Shown piece after piece: positions 2,990 to 12,131 of a stretch of DNA of 64,000 nucleotides (within the stretch, counting starts at the first letter, position 1; each line of letters starts with the position of its first letter). The notes under the pieces were generated by a model. It did no database searches, had not been told where the DNA came from, and saw only the letters and a list, made by a program, of their open reading frames with translations. Source of the stretch: Stylophora pistillata (Eukaryota); NCBI RefSeq assembly GCF_002571385.2, contig NW_019218039.1, forward strand, positions 278,225 through 342,224, given 5' to 3'. Position numbers and translations under genes: made by a program.

Positions 2990-4215
2990 ACGCAACGTCA
3001 TTTTCCATTCACATCTTTTGTGTTTGGGATCCAGCTCCAATACAAGATCACGGATCTGGATGTTGTCTCGAACGCAAAACCACTTGTTTCTTGGTAACAA
3101 GTTTGGGATGAAATACTTCATTCAACTTCTCCAGAAATCAGTGATTCTTTTTTGTGTGCTTCGGAGTAATTGTCGCGAATTGGTTCTTTCCTCTGGTTCT
3201 GGCTGTGGCGGTGGATTGTGATGGCCTAGAAGAAGGTCGTTTGGAGTGATCGGTGGAACTTCTCAGATATCGTCGCAACTGCATTATAGCGGTTGTCTGT
3301 TGACCAGGTAGGTAACTTCTGACAAGAATGTTCTCCATTGTTCTTCGGAATAGGCTTGGTTCTTTCAAGTGGCATTAAGTGCTTGTCTGACCGACTTAAT
3401 CAGGGTCTCAACAAGTCCGTTTTGGTGACTTACATGTGGTGTGTTCTACTCCCATCTGAACTCACAGCCAAACGTAATAAAGAGGACACTACTGCCAAAA
3501 TCTTTTTCTGGCCTCGTGTATTAAATTCTTGTAGCCACGATGCCCACGTCGTTCATGGAGAACATGCAGAAGCAACTTCAAACGGGTGGTCTTGTGGTTA
3601 AGATAATAGGCTTTCTGAACTTTTCAGGGAGGGATCTGACATCTTCAAGTCAACCATGTGCACAGAGAAGGCCATCTTCACCCTTCTTTGCCACCAGTTT
3701 CTTATCCAAACTCCCTTCGTCGACGTGAAATTGACCCAACTTCAGAAGACATGCCTCGGCAGCCCTCAGTTCCTGAACTGAAATGGGTCCTGACCTCAGG
3801 TTAATTTTCCAAGCATTGCGAATAAAACGACAGACATAGGCAAGAGTTCTCTGTATCTATGAGTACGTAGAACATGTTTTCAGCAAATGTGAATGGATAG
3901 GATTTTCTTCAAATTCAGGCTGATCTAGTTCAGGGCATACTTCTGCAAAGGCACTGATGTTCACTGGCTTTCTTCTCTTTCTAAAACGTTTTCTTCTCTT
4001 TTAATCCTTCGGGGTTGTCCACATGAGCGTTAACTTGGGTGTGGTCTTGAAAGCTGGGCCACTTTTCCTCTGGCAACTCTAGGAATGATGGTCCTTCTGA
4101 CCACTTCATGAGATGATTAAGATGGATTCCTCTCGTTAGAGCATCTGGAGGGTTATGGTTAGTCTTGATGTAGCGAATTTGGTCTGCCCCAATTGACTCT
4201 TGAAAAGTGTTATAA
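2990..4215 (-). mobile_element. BEL/Pao LTR retrotransposon fragment (end of RNase H, integrase, DUF5641-like C-terminus), degenerate
   Basis: NPPDALTRG...KWSEGPSFL and FWRS.MKYFIPNLLPRNKW...DLVLELDP motifs, with stops and frameshifts. Confidence 0.75.
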
Positions 4216-5068
4216 TGCTGTAATTGTTTGTTAAGTTCAGGTTTGATCTTATTTATATATAAAAAGCTTCTTTGAATTTTTAATGAATTGAGTTAGCAGA
4301 ATCCAGAATACTAAAACAAGAAGGGGAGTATTTGTTCTTACAAGAAGNNNNNNNNNNNNNNNNNNNNNNNNNNNNNNNNNNNNNNNNNNNNNNNNNNNNN
4401 NNNNNNNNNNNNNNNNNNNNNNNNNNNNNNNNNNNNNNNNNNNNNNNNNNNNNNNNNNNNNNNNNNNNNNNNNNNNNNNNNNNNNNNNNNNNNNNNNNNN
4501 NNNNNNNNNNNNNNNNNNNNNNNNNNNNNNNNNNNNNNNNNNNNNNNNNNNNNNNNNNNNNNNNNNNNNNNNNNNNNNNNNNNNNNNNNNNNNNNNNNNN
4601 NNNNNNNNNNNNNNNNNNNNNNNNNNNNNNNNNNNNNNNNNNNNNNNNNNNNNNNNNNNNNNNNNNNNNNNNNNNNNNNNNNNNNNNNNNNNNNNNNNNN
4701 NNNNNNNNNNNNNNNNNNNNNNNNNNNNNNNNNNNNNNNNNNNNNNNNNNNNNNNNNNNNNNNNNNNNNNNNNNNNNNNNNNNNNNNNNNNNNNNNNNNN
4801 NNNNNNNNNNNNNNNNNNNNNNNNNNNNNNNNNNNNNNNNNNNNNNNNNNNNNNNNNNNNNNNNNNNNNNNNNNNNNNNNNNNNNNNNNNNNNNNNNNNN
4901 NNNNNNNNNNNNNNNNNNNNNNNNNNNNNNNNNNNNNNNNNNNNNNNNNNNNNNNNNNNNNNNNNNNNNNNNNNNNNNNNNNNNNNNNNNNNNNNNNNNN
5001 NNNNNNNNNNNNNNNNNNNNNNNNNNNNNNNNNNNNNNNNNNNNNNNNNNNNNNNNNNNNAATAAAAA

Positions 5069-5086
5069 ATATATATATATATATAT
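5069..5086. repeat. (TA)n microsatellite, left flank of the retrozyme array
   Basis: ATATAT run directly abutting the first 245-bp unit. Confidence 0.9.
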
Positions 5087-5278
5087 AGCTCTTTGGCATA
5101 CAAAGCTTTGCTTTCATGTCCAAATTGAGCACTCTATCTAGGATGAGTCATTGCCGTTGCAATTGCGCATGCTCGCTGGTTTACTCTAGTTTGAGCACTC
5201 TGGCATGGCTTAGACGATACCACAAAGGTTGGGTCGTTTGGGGTGACCGTCTCGGTTCTCCCCCATCCTAGCATTAGC

Positions 5279-5324
5279 ACTGCACTGATGAGGCCCAGAA
5301 GGCCGAAACAGTACTGTCTGCAGT
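5279..5324 (+). ncRNA. Type I hammerhead ribozyme, copy 1 (repeats every 245 bp; copies 1-6 intact)
   Basis: Stem I ACTGCA (5279-5284)/TGCAGT (5319-5324); core CTGATGA 5285-5291; stem II GGCC-CAGAA-GGCC; GAAA 5305-5308; palindromic stem III ACAGTACTGT; cleavage triplet GTC, with the cut predicted after 5318. Confidence 0.93.
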
Positions 5325-6748
5325 TAGATATAGCTCTTTGGCATACAAAGCTTTGCTTTCATGTCCAAATTGAGCACTCTATCTAGGATGAGTCATTGCC
5401 GTTGCAATTGCGCATGCTCGCTGGTTTACTCTAGTTTGAGCACTCTGGCATGGCTTAGACGATACCACAAAGGTTGGGTCGTTTGGGGTGACCGTCTCGG
5501 TTCTCCCCCATCCTAGCATTAGCACTGCACTGATGAGGCCCAGAAGGCCGAAACAGTACTGTCTGCAGTTAGATATAGCTCTTTGGCATACAAAGCTTTG
5601 CTTTCATGTCCAAATTGAGCACTCTATCTAGGATGAGTCATTGCCGTTGCAATTGCGCATGCTCGCTGGTTTACTCTAGTTTGAGCACTCTGGCATGGCT
5701 TAGACGATACCACAAAGGTTGGGTCGTTTGGGGTGACCGTCTCGGTTCTCCCCCATCCTAGCATTAGCACTGCACTGATGAGGCCCAGAAGGCCGAAACA
5801 GTACTGTCTGCAGTTAGATATAGCTCTTTGGCATACAAAGCTTTGCTTTCATGTCCAAATTGAGCACTCTATCTAGGATGAGTCATTGCCGTTGCAATTG
5901 CGCATGCTCGCTGGTTTACTCTAGTTTGAGCACTCTGGCATGGCTTAGACGATACCACAAAGGTTGGGTCGTTTGGGGTGACCGTCTCGGTTCTCCCCCA
6001 TCCTAGCATTAGCACTGCACTGATGAGGCCCAGAAGGCCGAAACAGTACTGTCTGCAGTTAGATATAGCTCTTTGGCATACAAAGCTTTGCTTTCATGTC
6101 CAAATTGAGCACTCTATCTAGGATGAGTCATTGCCGTTGCAATTGCGCATGCTCGCTGGTTTACTCTAGTTTGAGCACTCTGGCATGGCTTAGACGATAC
6201 CACAAAGGTTGGGTCGTTTGGGGTGACCGTCTCGGTTCTCCCCCATCCTAGCATTAGCACTGCACTGATGAGGCCCAGAAGGCCGAAACAGTACTGTCTG
6301 CAGTTAGATATAGCTCTTTGGCATACAAAGCTTTGCTTTCATGTCCAAATCGAGCACTCTATCTAGGATGAGTCATTGCCGTTGCAATTGCGCATGCTCG
6401 CTGGTTTACTCTAGTTTGAGCACTCTGGCATGGCTTAGACGATACCACAAAGGTTGGGTCGTTTGGGGTGACCGTCTCGGTTCTCCCCCATCCTAGCATT
6501 AGCACTGCACTGATGAGGCCCAGAAGGCCGAAACAGTACTGTCTGCAGTTAGATATAGCTCTTTGGCATACAAAGCTTTGCTTTCATGTCCAAATTGAGC
6601 ACTCTATCTAGGATGAGTCATTGCCGTTGCAATTGCGCATGCTCGCTGGTTTACTCTAGTTTGAGCACTCTGGCATGGCTTAGACGATACCACAAAGGTT
6701 GGGTCGTTTGGGGTGACCGTCTCGGTTCTCCCCCATCCTAGCATTAGC

Positions 6749-6794
6749 ACTGCACTGATAAGGCCCAGAAGGCCGAAACAGTACTGTCTGCAGT
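6749..6794 (+). ncRNA. Hammerhead copy 7 with core mutation G8A (CTGATAA), probably inactive
   Basis: Position 6760 is A instead of G while C3 is retained, breaking the C3-G8 tertiary pair. Confidence 0.75.
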
Positions 6795-6797
6795 TAG

Positions 6798-6834
<37 letters not shown>

Positions 6835-6895
6835 TTAGATATATATAATGTGCATGGAATATAATATGCACATTATATATATAATGTGCATTGAA
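6798..6895. repeat. (TA)n microsatellite and short palindromes (TGCACATTA-(TA)n-TAATGTGCA)
   Basis: Read directly; a paralogous tract lies at 13881-13968. Confidence 0.85.
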
Positions 6896-6899
6896 GATT

Positions 6900-9800
6900 A
6901 TAATAAGTATTAATTATATGAAGAAAATTAAATATAACCCTATATAAAACTATTTACAAATAAGTACATAGAATAAAATATAATAAAAAGCTAATCTAAA
7001 AAAGTGAGACTTTAAGGAGCTCTTGAATTTTGACAGGTGTCTCTCGTTACAAAGCTCCTTAGGGAGGCTGTTCTAGAGTCTTGGTGCTGCAGGAGAAAAT
7101 GCACGATCACCTAATGTTTTCAAAGTTCTTTTCGGTTGTGACAACAGAAGTCCTCTATTTGATCTAAGGTTATAACCACTATTCTCTTTAATAGTAATTA
7201 ACTCTCTCAAATATGTAGGGGCAAGTCGATGGAGTGCCTCAAAAGTCATTAGAACTACTTTAAATTCGATTCTGAATTTTACAGGAAGCCAGTGTAGAGA
7301 TCTTAGAACTGGTGTCATATGGTCAAACCTTGGTATATTGAAAATCAATCTTGCTGCTGAATTCTGAAGGCGCTGTAACTTGTTAACATACTTTAGGGGC
7401 AGTCCACATAGAATGCTGTCACAGTAATCAATACGCCCAATTATTAGTGCGTGAATTAATGATTGTGTTGCCTCATGACTTAAGTATTTCCTAATACGCC
7501 TTACATTAATTAAATGGTAATATGCAGCCTTACATGTGTGATTTATATGAGCATGCATGCTCATGTTGTCATCAAACCAAGATCCTAAATTTTTCACAGA
7601 GGAAACTGAAGATACACAGGTATCACCTATCTTATTAGAGCTAAAATGGACCTTTGACAACTGCTGCCGTGTCCCTATAACCATAAATTCTGACTTCCTA
7701 TCATTGATCTTAAGCTTGTCCCTTAACATCCACGCTTGTATGTCAAGTATGGGGATAGGAGGATAGGATAGGATAGATAGTTTATTCACCTTAAAAAACT
7801 TGCACCCAAGAGCTGAATTGCGATAAGGTTTACAAATGCAAAATTTGCAACTTACTAAAATAATTAATTACAACTAATTAGTTAATTTACTAATTAAAAA
7901 ATGTTACAGAATGACAAATTCACAAGCATGCGTCGAATTCCTATGTAAAATAAGAAACAAAATAATATCTAATTATCATCTACAATAAACGTAACTTAAA
8001 AGAAAACTATTGTTGCACCTTTCAGTTTTACATCTCGGACAAAATATAGAATATATGTTCTTTGTTCTCTCAGATAGTAGCCAGGTTGGTATTTGCTTGG
8101 AAGTAGTTTATGAAGACTGTGAGATTGATTTATCACATATTTCATTGAACAACTTTGCCACGATTGCCTCTCTTCTATTATACAGCGTTAAAAGTCCATC
8201 TGCCTGGTGCAGATTCTGGCTTAAATGCCAAATGTAGTTGCGTATCATCAGCTTATGTATGGACACTAGGAAGGTACTTACCAACCGCTTCAAACAATTT
8301 GCTCGCATAAATTGTGAACAATAGCGGTCCCAAGCATGACTCTTGGGGAACGCCTTCTTGAGGATCAAAAGCATCTGCGCAGTATGCATTGAGTGAAATC
8401 CACTGAATGTGCCCATAGAGGTATGAAGAAAACCACCTCAATGCAGTCCCTCTTATTCCAAAGCTAGATTTGAGGCGGAACAATAGCACAGATAGAGATA
8501 GATCGATAGATGGCTTTATTCAAAAACTTCGCAACCAAAGGGCTGAGCTATGTTATTGTTACAATACTAAGTAAAGATATATATAAAAAATGACCCAAAA
8601 AATTACAAAATGTATTTGTGTGAAAATTAATCTATACCTGTATATATATGTAAGTGTATAAAAGACAAGTTAAATAATCAGATATTTTACATAATTACAT
8701 GTTCATAATTAAGATAATTTTAATTATAAAACGGTGCTAGCCTTCCTCGCATTGTTATTAATAAAACCTAGTTGTGTTCTTTTAGTTAAAAACTTGGCGA
8801 TAGAGAGTGGTCTACGGTGTCAAATACTGCGCTAAGATCGAGTAACACTCATAATACAACATGGTGACTATTCATAGACACCAGAATGTCATTTTGTATC
8901 TTTAGAAACGCTGTCTCTGTGCTATAGCCCTTTCTGTAAGCAGACTGCAATACGGGGTAGAGATCGTGATAGGACAAATGAGCATGCATCTGATAAAACA
9001 CTGCAAGTTCTACAAGTTTTGAGATATACTGAAGATTGCAAACTGGTCGAAAATTGTTGAAGTCATTCACCCCCGCTTTCCTACATCTTGGATCAACAAG
9101 TGCCTCCTTCCAGACATCGGGAAAATGACCTGCTGGTAAGAATGAATTTATCATTGTGGTTATCACGAGTAGCAAATTCTCAAGGGATTCGAGAACCAAT
9201 TTTGTCGGCAAGGGGTCAAGACCACAATGTTTCTTTGATGATCGTTTTATGAGATCTTGTATGTCATTTCCAGAAAGAGGCTTGAACGATGAGAGTGCAC
9301 GTGCATCATCCACAACGGGATCCTCTGAGATTACCTCTACGTTTGTCCCAGCCATGGTATCTATGTAGTCGCGGATTCTTACTATCTTGTTCCCAAAAGA
9401 CCTCCCAATATCATTGACCAATAACGATTTATCTTCATAGTCAGGAAATCATAGCGAGTCATTCTTTCCCAGAAGCCTTTTAGAGGCGTGAAATTGCCTC
9501 TCTTGGTCACTAATATTCTCCTCTACAAAACTTGTGAAGAATTTTCGTTTCGCCTCACTCAGAAGATAAATTGCATGATTGCTTCTCTTATTGAATATCT
9601 GAAGGTCAGCATCGCTCCTGGTTTTTCTCCATTTCCTTTCGGCTTTTTTGTGCAAGATCTTGGCATTGTGTATATCCTCTCTGTACCGCGGCACCGTATG
9701 CCTGGACATAACAGTCTTCGTTTTTACCGGGGCATCTAAATCGAGGATCTTAGAGTCTTGTTATGATTCAAAGCTAGGTTATCACACTCCAGAGGACCAG

Positions 9801-11200
9801 GAGTATTCATGCTTGGCCTTGCAACAGCATCTTTACACAAAGGTGACTCAGCTAAGTCATGCGGAAACGAAACCGCATCAATTGATTTGATCCTGTGATA
9901 CTTCACTTTGACTGTGATAGAAGGCTTCCGTGACTGCAAATTACACAAGATTGCAGCATGGTCTGACAAATAACGATCAACAAATGGGGGTCCTCGAATA
10001 ACCTCTTCTGCTAGACGGGTGATTATGGGATCTAAAGTATGGCCCTGAACGTGCGTAGGACCTTTTCACATGTTACTGTGAACCGAGAGAGTCCAAAAGA
10101 TCTAGAAAATTCCGTGCATCTGCATCGCATGGATCATCCACATGAATATACATGTCACCAACTCTTAAGAGTTGCTCCTGCAATAGAAGAATGGACTCCA
10201 TATATTGGGCGAACTCCGCACAAAAAGTCGTAATTGTGACAGGATGATCTTCTGAATAAGGGGACCGATAAACAATCACAATCCGAAACTTTTTTGTAGA
10301 ACATCCGCTGACCAGCCATTCTGAATATTCAAAAGATTCATGGTCGCCTCCATCATTGAGCAAATCTCTAAACATCATTCCAGTTCTACCTCCACGTCGA
10401 CCAATCCTGTTGTGATCAAGAAACTTATACCATTTGGACAAAGCTCAGCCCGCACAGCAGCATCTTCTTCGTTCAGCCAACTCTCAGTAAATGTCAGTAA
10501 ATCAGCCTTACAATCACAGACTTAATCGAATGTATCAGAAGTCTTGTTCCGCACCGAGCAAGTACTTAAACAACCCAGTAACAAAGTCTGTCGTCGATTT
10601 CCAGGGACGGCAGTAGAACAGCTGATCTTGATTAAATTCCTAATGTTGCATGACAATCCTTTTGCTTGTTGTTTTCCTTTTTTTCCACCCCACTTGACGA
10701 CCGTGTTGATAATTCTTCAGGTTCTGGATACAATTTAAACACAAGATCTCCAATCAACAATGCCATCTAATACTCCGTTGATGAAGGAATCTGTCTTTAT
10801 CAAATTTAACAATAGACACTGCCAAAGCCGCATCACTCAAATCAGCGCTATTGTTCTTGTTAACAATGCCATACGCATCCAACCAAAAGTACATTCGAGA
10901 TCCCTTCGATAAATTCGCTTCTCCTGCTGCATAGAGAAAACCTTTTTCGGTTCAGGATTGGCCTCCAACTTCTTGATAGCTTTAAAAGGCCTCCTGTGCA
11001 TCTTGGTTCCAGTAAAAACCATCCAAAATAACCGAAACCTTGGAGCAGCCAAAACTGCTTCCAATCCTCATTACCATTTTTTCATGTTTTATGTTTTAAT
11101 TGTACTTACAATTCTGTATTCCTTTCACGAAGTAAACCTTGTATTCATGTTACGATTCTTGCTCTGTACTTAGAGACTATTGACGAGATAGCGTCCCCTC
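6900..11200 (-). mobile_element. Near full-length degenerate CR1/L2-clade LINE (APE + RT), copy A
   Basis: APE motifs (LLTFTESWL, IVIVYRSPY, GDMYIHVD, SDHAAI) at 9740-10640. RT motifs (NFRPVCNL, QSAYRKGYSTETA, GVPQESCLGPLLF, YADD, LHWLPVKFRI) at 7070-9420. Two short foreign LINE-tail insertions at about 7750-8190 and 8490-8800. Confidence 0.85.
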
Positions 11201-11239
11201 TGTAGTTTCGAAGTGGGCGTTCTCTTTTATTAGAGATAT

Positions 11240-12131
11240 GCCCCTAGGGATGTTACATAACTAGACAGGGACTAAAAATAATTTCCTGCAAAACACTCCC
11301 TCTCCACTGCGGAAATTGTATCACATTACTTTGTGATTAGATTGAGCAACAATACGCATTTATAGCAACATTTGTAGTTGCTTATGTTTCATTACTTAGT
11401 TCTTCCTTCATAGCAATTAAGCAATGTTTATGGATTGGTCGATCATAAACTGAAGTTGCAGTTTTGATTCTAACTTTTCTCACAAGACCATCTGCTGCCG
11501 CATATGTAAGAAGGACCAGTCGAAGCTTCTATGTTCTTCTCGGAGTCGGTTCCAGTTCTAACACCAAATCTCTCTCATGGAGGTTTTCTCTCGGTCTGTA
11601 CCATTTGTTTCTGGGCAACCAAATTAGGTTCAAAATATTTTACCCAACACTTGCAGAACTCTTGAACCCGCATTTCTGTGCTTCTCGTGAGGTGCCGCAG
11701 ATTCACTGTTCTGGAGCAGGGGCAGAAAATGGTGGCCAATAAGAAGGTCGTTTGGCATAACAGGAGGGCTTTACCAGATTCCATCTCAACTGGAATGAAG
11801 AGGTCGACTGTTTATTAAATATGTCACTTGTGCAATATGTGTTCTCCACTGTTTCTCTGTGAATGACTGATTCTTGGAACAGACGTCCAACACTTGCCTC
11901 ACGGATTTAATAAAACTTTTGACTACTCCATTCCGATGGCTTGCACGAGGTACATTCCATTCGCACTTGAATGTGCATGAAAATGCATTTGACAAGACAC
12001 TCTGAATTCTGGGAATATCCCAGTCTTGCATTACTTCTCTTAAATATTGTTGTGCCCCAACAAAGTTTGTTCTGCAATCTGACCAACAGTTAATAGGTTG
12101 GCCTCTGAATGATGGAAATCTTCGAAATTCC
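11240..12131 (-). mobile_element. BEL/Pao integrase C-terminus, PPT and start of 3' LTR, copy A
   Basis: WSDCRTNFVGA...EWNVPRASHRNG...INSRPL; PPT GGAGAGGGAG followed by TGTTTTGCAGG on the minus strand near 11296. Confidence 0.75.

What the first reader, a model, noticed from the sequence alone, without database searches (positions are those of the whole stretch)
5305..5318. Palindromic stem III suggests cleavage as a double (dimeric) hammerhead
Seen: the stem III region ACAGTACTGT is a perfect 10-nt palindrome, leaving only a strained 2-4-nt loop in a monomer. Known: minimal type I hammerheads, such as those of newt satellite 2 and ASBVd, cleave as double hammerheads in which two cores share an extended stem III. 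Inference: the tandem arrangement is functionally required, so multimeric transcripts cut efficiently while a released monomeric circle resists re-cutting.
Basis: partly seen in the sequence, partly recalled or inferred. Interest (0 to 1): 0.7.

Follow-up and report, generated by a model that had tools for sequence, protein, structure and literature searches.

The report
Coral retrozyme ribozyme: pairing optional
The palindrome is real and sits in the self-cutting RNA motif of a known coral mobile repeat (seven 245-base copies here); two neighbouring motifs are predicted to be able to pair up and cut as a twin, but a single copy likely cuts well alone, so the proposed need for tandem copies is probably wrong and the element is ordinary.

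Summary
Observation confirmed with a coordinate fix: ACAGTACTGT is at 5308-5317, in each of seven 245-bp units (5083-6797) of a coral non-LTR retrozyme inserted in a (TA)n tract. The same hammerhead core, helix II and helix III are printed for two coral retrozymes (Cervera 2016). The monomer helix III is 3 bp plus a GUAC tetraloop, one pair longer than the newt-type helix, and the loop 1/loop 2 contact nucleotides are present, so it is canonical, not minimal. Folding models favour the double hammerhead over two monomers by about 6 kcal/mol, and palindromic helix III is a family trait (38 of 45 mostly coral hits versus 2 of 54 phage hits), so dimer cleavage is likely possible. The dimer idea itself has been in print since 1988/2011/2014. 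Side result: a Hydra-clade Penelope element in this window shares the (TA)n target and a ~26-nt hairpin motif with the retrozyme, a candidate mobiliser.

The parts
5083..6797 (+). Tandem array of exactly 7.0 units of 245 bp (non-LTR retrozyme); units differ at only 2 positions (T>C 6351, G>A 6760)
5279..5324 (+). Type I hammerhead of unit 1 (stem I 5279-5284/5319-5324; core 5285-5291; stem II 5292-5304; GAAA 5305-5308; C17 = 5318); repeated every 245 nt
5308..5317 (+). Palindromic helix III: 3 bp + GUAC tetraloop as monomer, 10-bp shared helix as double hammerhead
5275..5328 (+). Helix I internal loop (U5325-A-G-A : U-A-G-C5278) and loop 2 C5296...A5300, the positions matching the Schistosoma loop 1/loop 2 contact (U1, C8, 3' A)
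   Evidence: sequence compared with PMC2632901 passages; U after stem I in 20 of 23 six-nt-class hits
6755..6761 (+). Core of unit 7 with G8>A (CUGAUAA), predicted inactive; units 6+7 form a natural monomer/dimer diagnostic
   Evidence: role of G8 from established hammerhead chemistry
5166..5202 (+). Hairpin motif in the retrozyme body shared with the tail of the Penelope-like element at 13826-13856
5070..5087 (.). (TA)n tract at the left end of the array (an N gap, 4348-5060, lies just upstream)
6798..6829 (.). (TA)n tract at the right end, 9 nt after the last cleavage site
12528..13880 (+). 5'-inverted, decayed Hydra-type Penelope-like element (RT-thumb piece on - strand 12528-12737; endonuclease ORF 12934-13443 with CxCx5C; hammerhead at 13733; ends in (TA)n): candidate mobilising family

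Best explanation
The palindrome is helix III of a canonical type I hammerhead in a seven-copy coral non-LTR retrozyme; each ribozyme likely folds and cuts on its own as it leaves the polymerase, and the palindrome is predicted to add an optional double-hammerhead route in multimeric RNA rather than a required one. Shown here: array, ribozyme anatomy, fixed 3' end at a (TA)n tract, identity of the ribozyme with published coral retrozymes. From published work on the family: read-through transcripts are cut to ~225-245-nt monomers, circularised probably by an RtcB-type ligase, and reverse-transcribed by an autonomous element into tandem copies. Inferred: in the single ribozyme the weak 3-bp helix III competes with a misfold in which the palindrome's 5' half (5309-5312) pairs with the start of the core (5284-5287); the loop 1/loop 2 tertiary contact and Mg2+ would pay the ~4.5 kcal/mol; in a multimer the 10-bp shared helix removes that misfold and can rescue slow folders. 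The symmetric helix III is probably inherited from, and still compatible with, the dimer-cleaving hammerheads of Penelope-like elements.
For: Ribozyme text identical to Pseudodiploria strigosa (243 nt) and, as far as the scrambled PDF text shows, Acropora digitifera (229 nt) retrozymes in Cervera 2016 Additional file 11; window unit 80.4% identical over 250 nt to L130, which matches that P. strigosa text by eye; unit length equals the 245-bp A. millepora variant; monomeric A. millepora clone kobs ~0.8/min, near-complete in 5 min; review by the same group: most invertebrate type I HHRs self-cleave efficiently as monomers. Axolotl palindromic monomers cleaved poorly in the same assay, so intermolecular rescue is not automatic there. 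Helix III one pair longer than the AGCU class; model gap to the active fold 4.5 kcal/mol (family median 4.5, n=14) versus 6.1 (n=41) for that class. Double form predicted 6-7 kcal/mol better than two monomers. Palindrome-breaking variants exist: 2 of 20 family loci (AGTTCT, AGTACC), T5312C in contigs of runs X15 and X17, and the same ACAG-nn-CTGT helix has centres tt, ac, ta, tg in four Hydra-clade elements.
Against: I could not see the sequence of the A. millepora clone that was assayed (figure; supplement unreadable), so its identity with this helix III is inferred from the congener. Concentration-independence was not reported in the text I read, so intermolecular dimers through the 10-bp palindrome (-13.4 kcal/mol) are not excluded. 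Nearest-neighbour folding gives the monomer helix III a probability near 0 and the misfold 0.9 or more, far worse than phage type I hammerheads (median gap 0.7, n=52). Axolotl HHR_Amex2 has the same 2-bp-plus-tetraloop class of helix III yet needed the dimer (attributed to a weak helix II). The palindrome is kept in 16 of 20 family loci, 18 of 20 counting a G.U variant, across corals whose unit bodies are ~80% alike; the breaking variants may be dead copies.
Confidence: 0.7

Rival explanations
1. One reading: the ribozyme is an obligate double hammerhead; tandem copies are needed for cutting and the released circle is inert for lack of a partner.
For: Double form close to the free ensemble (3.4 kcal/mol for two cores) while a monomer is 4.5-4.9 away; palindrome conserved within the family and, with different sequence (AGCU, GCGC, GUAC), between families; precedent in newt, axolotl and PLE ribozymes.
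Against: Published monomeric coral clone cleaves at ~0.8/min; tertiary-contact nucleotides present; helix III longer than newt type; two ribozymes are needed anyway to release a monomer, which explains tandem structure without dimer catalysis.
Confidence: 0.12
2. The palindrome has no present role in dimers: it is a relic of a Penelope ancestor or a by-product of a favoured tetraloop, kept by the general slow evolution of the ribozyme and by array homogenisation.
For: Whole ribozyme, not only helix III, is nearly invariant in the 20 family loci (stem I 5' strand 19 of 20), so conservation is not specific to the palindrome; no compensatory change within the family; Hydra-clade relatives vary the two central bases freely.
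Against: Between-family covariation of the loop keeps symmetry; the predicted gain of the double form is large.
Confidence: 0.25
3. [quoted passage not shown]
For: Predicted pairing 5284-5287 with 5309-5312 at probability 0.9 or more in the circle and in linear monomers; the published model needs some unexplained block for metazoan circles.
Against: Secondary-structure programs ignore the tertiary core and commonly misfold hammerheads (own knowledge); the gap is the same in circle (4.7) and linear monomer (4.5-4.9), so it gives no circle-specific switch; coral extracts hold ~50% linear RNA, more than mussel.
Confidence: 0.15

Closest known systems
Coral non-LTR retrozymes (Acropora millepora 225/245 bp; A. 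digitifera 229 nt; Pseudodiploria strigosa 243 nt; Cervera 2016 PMC4918200, Cervera & de la Pena 2020 PMC7229834)
   Same: Same ribozyme sequence, same unit size, homologous body, tandem array, GC 49%, no coding capacity, self-paired monomer (z -3.15)
   Different: This copy's body is ~80% identical to the P. strigosa-type loci; one ribozyme carries G8A; (TA)n targeting with a fixed 3' end is not described in the main text I read
Newt satellite 2 / axolotl HHR_Amex1 double hammerheads
   Same: Type I, tandem repeat, palindromic helix III able to form a shared helix
   Different: Those have one pair (beyond 15.1-16.1) plus tetraloop and cleave poorly as monomers; this has two
Avocado sunblotch viroid hammerheads
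   Same: Weak helix III, double-hammerhead precedent
   Different: Infectious RNA with no clearly delimited helices I and II; not a genomic tandem repeat
Hammerheads of Hydra-clade Penelope-like elements (Craig 2021, PMC8557442)
   Same: ACAG-nn-CTGT helix III in 4 of the listed families, (TA)n insertion, type I topology
   Different: Longer helix II, no canonical CA..A loop 2, part of a protein-coding element
Schistosoma mansoni hammerhead (canonical type I)
   Same: 6-bp stem I, 4-bp stem II, C...A loop 2, U and C of internal loop 1
   Different: 5-nt rather than 6-nt loop 2; GUAC rather than GCGC symmetric centre

Membership tests
Metazoan non-LTR retrozyme | Tandem repeats of 150-450 bp each with a type I hammerhead | tested here: met
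   7.0 x 245 bp, 7 ribozymes, 6 with intact core
Metazoan non-LTR retrozyme | No protein coding, no LTR structure, GC below 50% | tested here: met
   longest stop-free run 74 codons; GC 0.49; no terminal repeats other than the units
Metazoan non-LTR retrozyme | Homology to published coral retrozymes | tested here: met
   ribozyme and body segments match Additional file 11 text by eye; 80.4% over 250 nt to L130
Metazoan non-LTR retrozyme | Highly self-paired monomer | tested here: met
   -83.7 kcal/mol, z -3.15, 1 of 200 shuffles as good
Metazoan non-LTR retrozyme | Expressed as linear and circular RNA | tested here: inconclusive
   present in contigs of RNA runs (6 on record as RNA among 20 holders; 2 laid) but contigs cannot show strand, ends or circularity, and head-to-tail joints also exist in DNA
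Metazoan non-LTR retrozyme | Target-site duplication / dispersed retrotransposed copies | tested here: inconclusive
   TSD cannot be read in (TA)n next to an N gap; relatives show a fixed 3' end and variable 5' truncation
Canonical type I hammerhead | Core CUGANGA/GAAA/NUH, 6-bp helix I, 4-bp helix II | tested here: met
   (Rfam HH9 match 22.9 bits, below the gathering score of 52)
Canonical type I hammerhead | Loop 1 U and pyrimidine, loop 2 3' A | tested here: met
   U5325, C5278, A5300 by sequence against PMC2632901 passages; contact itself not modelled
Canonical type I hammerhead | Self-cleavage | not testable with these tools
   published for an A. millepora family member
Obligate double hammerhead (newt/axolotl/minimal PLE type) | Self-complementary helix III | tested here: met
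Obligate double hammerhead (newt/axolotl/minimal PLE type) | Helix III too short for a monomer (at most 1 pair beyond 15.1-16.1) | tested here: not met
   2 further pairs plus tetraloop; class described as invertebrate type
Obligate double hammerhead (newt/axolotl/minimal PLE type) | Poor monomer, efficient dimer cleavage | not testable with these tools
   published family monomer is fast; no dimer rate published in what I read
Hydra-clade PLE (element at 12.5-13.9 kb) | C-terminal endonuclease with CxCx5C linker, hammerhead in tail, (TA)n insertion | tested here: met
   protein pieces resemble Hydra-1/2_Amil by eye; Pfam gave no match; no tree built

The most novel reading that the evidence does not exclude
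This coral retrozyme family is the non-autonomous passenger of (TA)n-targeting Hydra-clade Penelope elements, recognised through a shared ~26-nt hairpin, and its symmetric helix III is a two-mode switch inherited from them: self-blocked by core pairing in the circle, released by double-hammerhead pairing in multimers. The window then holds the passenger, a driver copy and a natural G8A test pair side by side.
Probability: 0.3. Interest if true: 0.5.

Novelty: new member of a known kind. Interest (0 to 1): 0.2.

Why it matters
The dimer question is old and, for this coral family, largely answered in favour of monomer competence, so the finding as written adds little. What could matter is narrower: (1) units 6+7 give a ready-made one-gel test of single versus double hammerhead cleavage, and of how animal retrozyme circles avoid re-cutting, a point the 2020 paper leaves open; (2) the autonomous partner of invertebrate retrozymes is proposed (PLEs) but, in the papers I read, not pinned to a clade or a cis signal in corals; shared (TA)n targeting, a fixed 3' end and a shared hairpin point to Hydra-clade PLEs.

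Tried and rejected
Whole-window Rfam scan at gathering thresholds finds only a tRNA; the hammerhead appears only at E 0.003. No genome is held for this window, so copy number and genome-wide variants could not be counted. Full-text search for the ribozyme sequence in papers: 0 hits. The supplement of PMC7229834 and the Lunse 2017 paper could not be read; bioRxiv supplements are closed; they may hold the assayed coral sequence and dimer data. Search for relatives of the PLE endonuclease in viral contigs: none confirmed. Pfam did not recognise the PLE pieces. The first run of the motif test had L236 in the wrong orientation and was redone. The automated extra-hammerhead search missed the upstream PLE-type ribozymes of L195 and L196 seen by eye. 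Contig depth across the cleavage site was not used: it is no measure of RNA ends. Fisher tests are not cited as probabilities because the loci are related. Treating the palindrome as significant by itself was rejected. Earlier scan notes: none by place, sequence or words. Rejected readings: viroid-like infectious RNA (genomic array in DNA runs); minimal PLE-type ribozyme (canonical helices and loops); plain satellite without function (ribozyme conserved while body diverges ~20%).

Full report
1. Observation. The decamer ACAGTACTGT lies at 5308-5317, not 5305-5318, and recurs every 245 nt seven times. Tandem Repeats Finder gives 7.0 copies of 245 bp; in register the array runs 5083-6797, with only two differences among units, T>C at 6351 and G>A at 6760. 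It is flanked by (TA)n on both sides and an N gap lies 22 nt to the left. The palindrome is helix III of a type I hammerhead: stem I 5279-5284/5319-5324, CUGAUGA 5285-5291, four-pair stem II with loop CAGAA, GAAA, GUC with cleavage expected after C5318. By itself a 10-nt palindrome is common here: 20.6% of 2000 shuffled units have one and the unit has a second.

2. What the element is. Twenty of the 24 listed runs hold the stretch; those with a readable label are coral metagenomes, a metagenome, or one coded organism. Additional file 11 of Cervera 2016 (PMC4918200; supplement text read) prints the same core, helix II and helix III for Pseudodiploria strigosa (243 nt) and, in scrambled pieces, Acropora digitifera (229 nt), with body segments that match this unit by eye. 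A metagenome scan for canonical short-helix-III hammerheads returned 120 loci from 8 of 64 parts of the collection; 20 carry this ribozyme, and L130 aligns to the unit at 80.4% over 250 nt. Cervera & de la Pena 2020 (PMC7229834; parts 1-4 of 6 read, figures and supplement not seen) describe A. millepora units of about 225 and 245 bp, expressed as linear and circular RNA. The unit has GC 0.49, no stop-free run over 74 codons and folds better than 199 of 200 shuffles. It is a member of the coral non-LTR retrozyme family.

3. Monomer or dimer. For the dimer: the double hammerhead is a nested structure, and in a two-ribozyme transcript (5083-5590) its constrained ensemble energy is -184.8 against -178.6 kcal/mol for two monomers and -188.2 unconstrained at 37 C (-229.1, -221.7, -233.9 at 25 C). 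In the single ribozyme the program puts helix III near probability 0 and instead pairs 5284-5287 with 5309-5312 at 0.9 or more. The gap to the active fold is 4.5 kcal/mol, against medians of 6.1 (41 AGCU-class hammerheads) and 0.7 (52 phage hammerheads with long helix III). Perfectly palindromic helix III occurs in 38 of 45 distinct metagenome hammerheads with stem I of 5 pairs or more (35 of them AGCU-type) but in 2 of 54 from the phage scan (124 loci, 14 of 64 parts); loci failing the stem I filter were dropped, the two patterns differed, and the sequences are related. The same trait and the same dimer reading are in Perreault 2011 Fig. S8 (passages and figure text) and Cervera & de la Pena 2014 (parts 1-2 of 4), which also states the 'multimer cuts, circle resists' model.

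Against a requirement: the monomer helix is three pairs plus a tetraloop (+1.3 kcal/mol, against +2.4 for the one-pair-shorter AGCU class), the class the 2020 paper calls 'similar to invertebrate HHRs'. The nucleotides of the Schistosoma-type loop contact are in place (U5325, C5278, C5296:A5300; PMC2632901 passages), so it is not minimal. A monomeric A. millepora clone cleaved at about 0.8/min, almost fully in 5 min, whereas axolotl monomers gave 6% and 22% in an hour and needed dimers; the group's review repeats that most invertebrate motifs cleave efficiently as monomers (PMC7761336 passages). Even newt motifs have a single-motif mode (PMC6155905 passages; the 1988 and 1991 originals not read). 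Within the family 16 of 20 loci keep AGTACT, 2 have a G.U variant, 1 breaks a pair and 1 breaks only the loop symmetry; no compensatory change was seen. In 4 laid runs (of 24 listed) A5310G reaches 6% of summed contig depth in X7 and the symmetry-breaking T5312C 5% in X15 and 11% in X17; these cannot be phased, may be dead copies or other elements, and 17 rows were not shown. Four Hydra-clade PLE families have the same ACAG-nn-CTGT helix with centres tt, ac, ta, tg (PMC8557442 supplement part 2 of 59). Remaining loopholes: the assayed clone's sequence was not seen, concentration-independence is not reported in the text read, and axolotl HHR_Amex2, with a similar helix III but weak helix II, did need the dimer.

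On the circle: the gap to the active fold is 4.7 kcal/mol in the circular monomer, no larger than in the linear one; the 2020 paper says metazoan circles are predicted to leave the ribozyme free and must be blocked by something else. So lack of a partner is not shown to protect the circle; the predicted core misfold is a lead only.

4. How it likely works. Read-through transcription of the array; each ribozyme folds locally and cuts after C17 (inferred from family data); double pairing between neighbours is an optional, thermodynamically favoured rescue (predicted); monomers are ligated by a host RtcB-type enzyme (published for axolotl and mussel); circles are copied by an autonomous element into tandem cDNA. 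Tandem copies are needed to release a monomer regardless of dimer catalysis.

5. The likely mobiliser (side result). In relatives the 3' end is fixed a few bases after stem I: 13 of 20 loci run into TA-rich sequence, 2 continue into the next unit, 5 other; (TA)4 follows within 60 nt in 12 of 20 against 0 of 86 AGCU-class loci; 57 contigs of X7 leave the unit at 5332 into (TA)n. 5' ends vary. At 12.5-13.9 kb the window holds a decayed PLE with a CxCx5C linker, a hammerhead at 13733 and a (TA)n end, the marks of the Hydra clade, nearly all of which insert in (TA)n (PMC8557442 section 11); Pfam did not recognise it and no tree was built. It ends in the same TA tract, in a 95%-identical duplicate of the flank, where the array ends. 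Its tail shares a hairpin motif with the retrozyme body: scores 41 and 42 for L236 and L147 (0 of 500 shuffles), 29 for the window unit (2 of 500; 0 of 111 other window stretches), and 24-27 for six other copies (7 to 70 of 500); the motif was found by eye first, so these are post hoc. PLE-type sequence flanks 3 of 20 family loci by the automated hammerhead test (0 of 86 controls) and L196 by eye. Shared targets alone could explain the co-location. A PLE origin of animal retrozymes is already argued for Xenopus (bioRxiv 10.64898/2026.07.22.740005, parts 1-3 of 5). I saw no report of this clade-level link or motif in searches for hammerhead+Acropora, retrozyme+Penelope+microsatellite or the sequence; unseen supplements may hold it.

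6. Verdict. Real feature, known family, known idea; the strong claim (dimer required) is unlikely (about 0.12), the weak claim (dimer possible) likely. Interest 0.2. The most useful leftovers are the natural unit 6+7 test and the Hydra-PLE lead.

Noticed in passing
window 12528-13880: Decayed, 5'-inverted Hydra-type Penelope-like element with its own hammerhead at 13733, ending in (TA)n; its tail (13826-13856) shares a hairpin motif with the retrozyme body (local score 41-42 for L236, L147 against shuffle maximum 28, 0 of 500; window unit 29, 2 of 500; weaker in 6 other copies tested).
   Followed up: partly
window 6813-12132 vs 13881-19201; 4043-4347 vs 12142-12449: 5.3-kb duplication at 95% identity, joined at a single N (12141): probably two haplotypes or a segmental duplication. 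The retrozyme array ends in the same (TA)n tract where the PLE ends in the other copy, which lacks the array.
   Followed up: partly
L195:1-643 (+), L196 (- strand, upstream of the match), L147, L163: Four of 20 family loci lie next to Hydra-type PLE sequence; in L195 and L196 a PLE 3' end is followed directly by a 5'-truncated retrozyme (nested insertion at a shared target or template switch).
   Followed up: partly
L147, L156, L167, L196: Four 5'-truncated copies begin at the same hairpin of the unit, suggesting a reverse-transcription stop there (by eye).
   Followed up: no
86 loci among L125-L244: A second, more numerous class of hammerheads from the same metagenome scan has the newt-type helix III (one pair plus AGCU loop), no (TA)n association (0 of 86) and no published dimer test that I saw; better candidates for obligate double hammerheads than this family.
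   Followed up: partly
window 6760: G8>A in the core of the last ribozyme; could be real decay or an assembly error.
   Followed up: no
L074:401-1473: Phage contig with four near-identical type I hammerheads, each followed by a ribosome-binding site and a short ORF.
   Followed up: no
window 33393-33692: Inverted repeat of about 300 bp containing the only Rfam hit, a tRNA-like sequence at 33470-33542 (-); its arms recur at 60182-60233.
   Followed up: no
window 21859-22139 and 27025-27298: Two 20-bp minisatellite arrays in inverted orientation about 5 kb apart, like the ends of a DNA transposon.
   Followed up: no
window 61277-62112 vs 62969-63804: 836-bp direct duplication (98.7%) on both sides of an N gap; likely an assembly artefact.
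   Followed up: no
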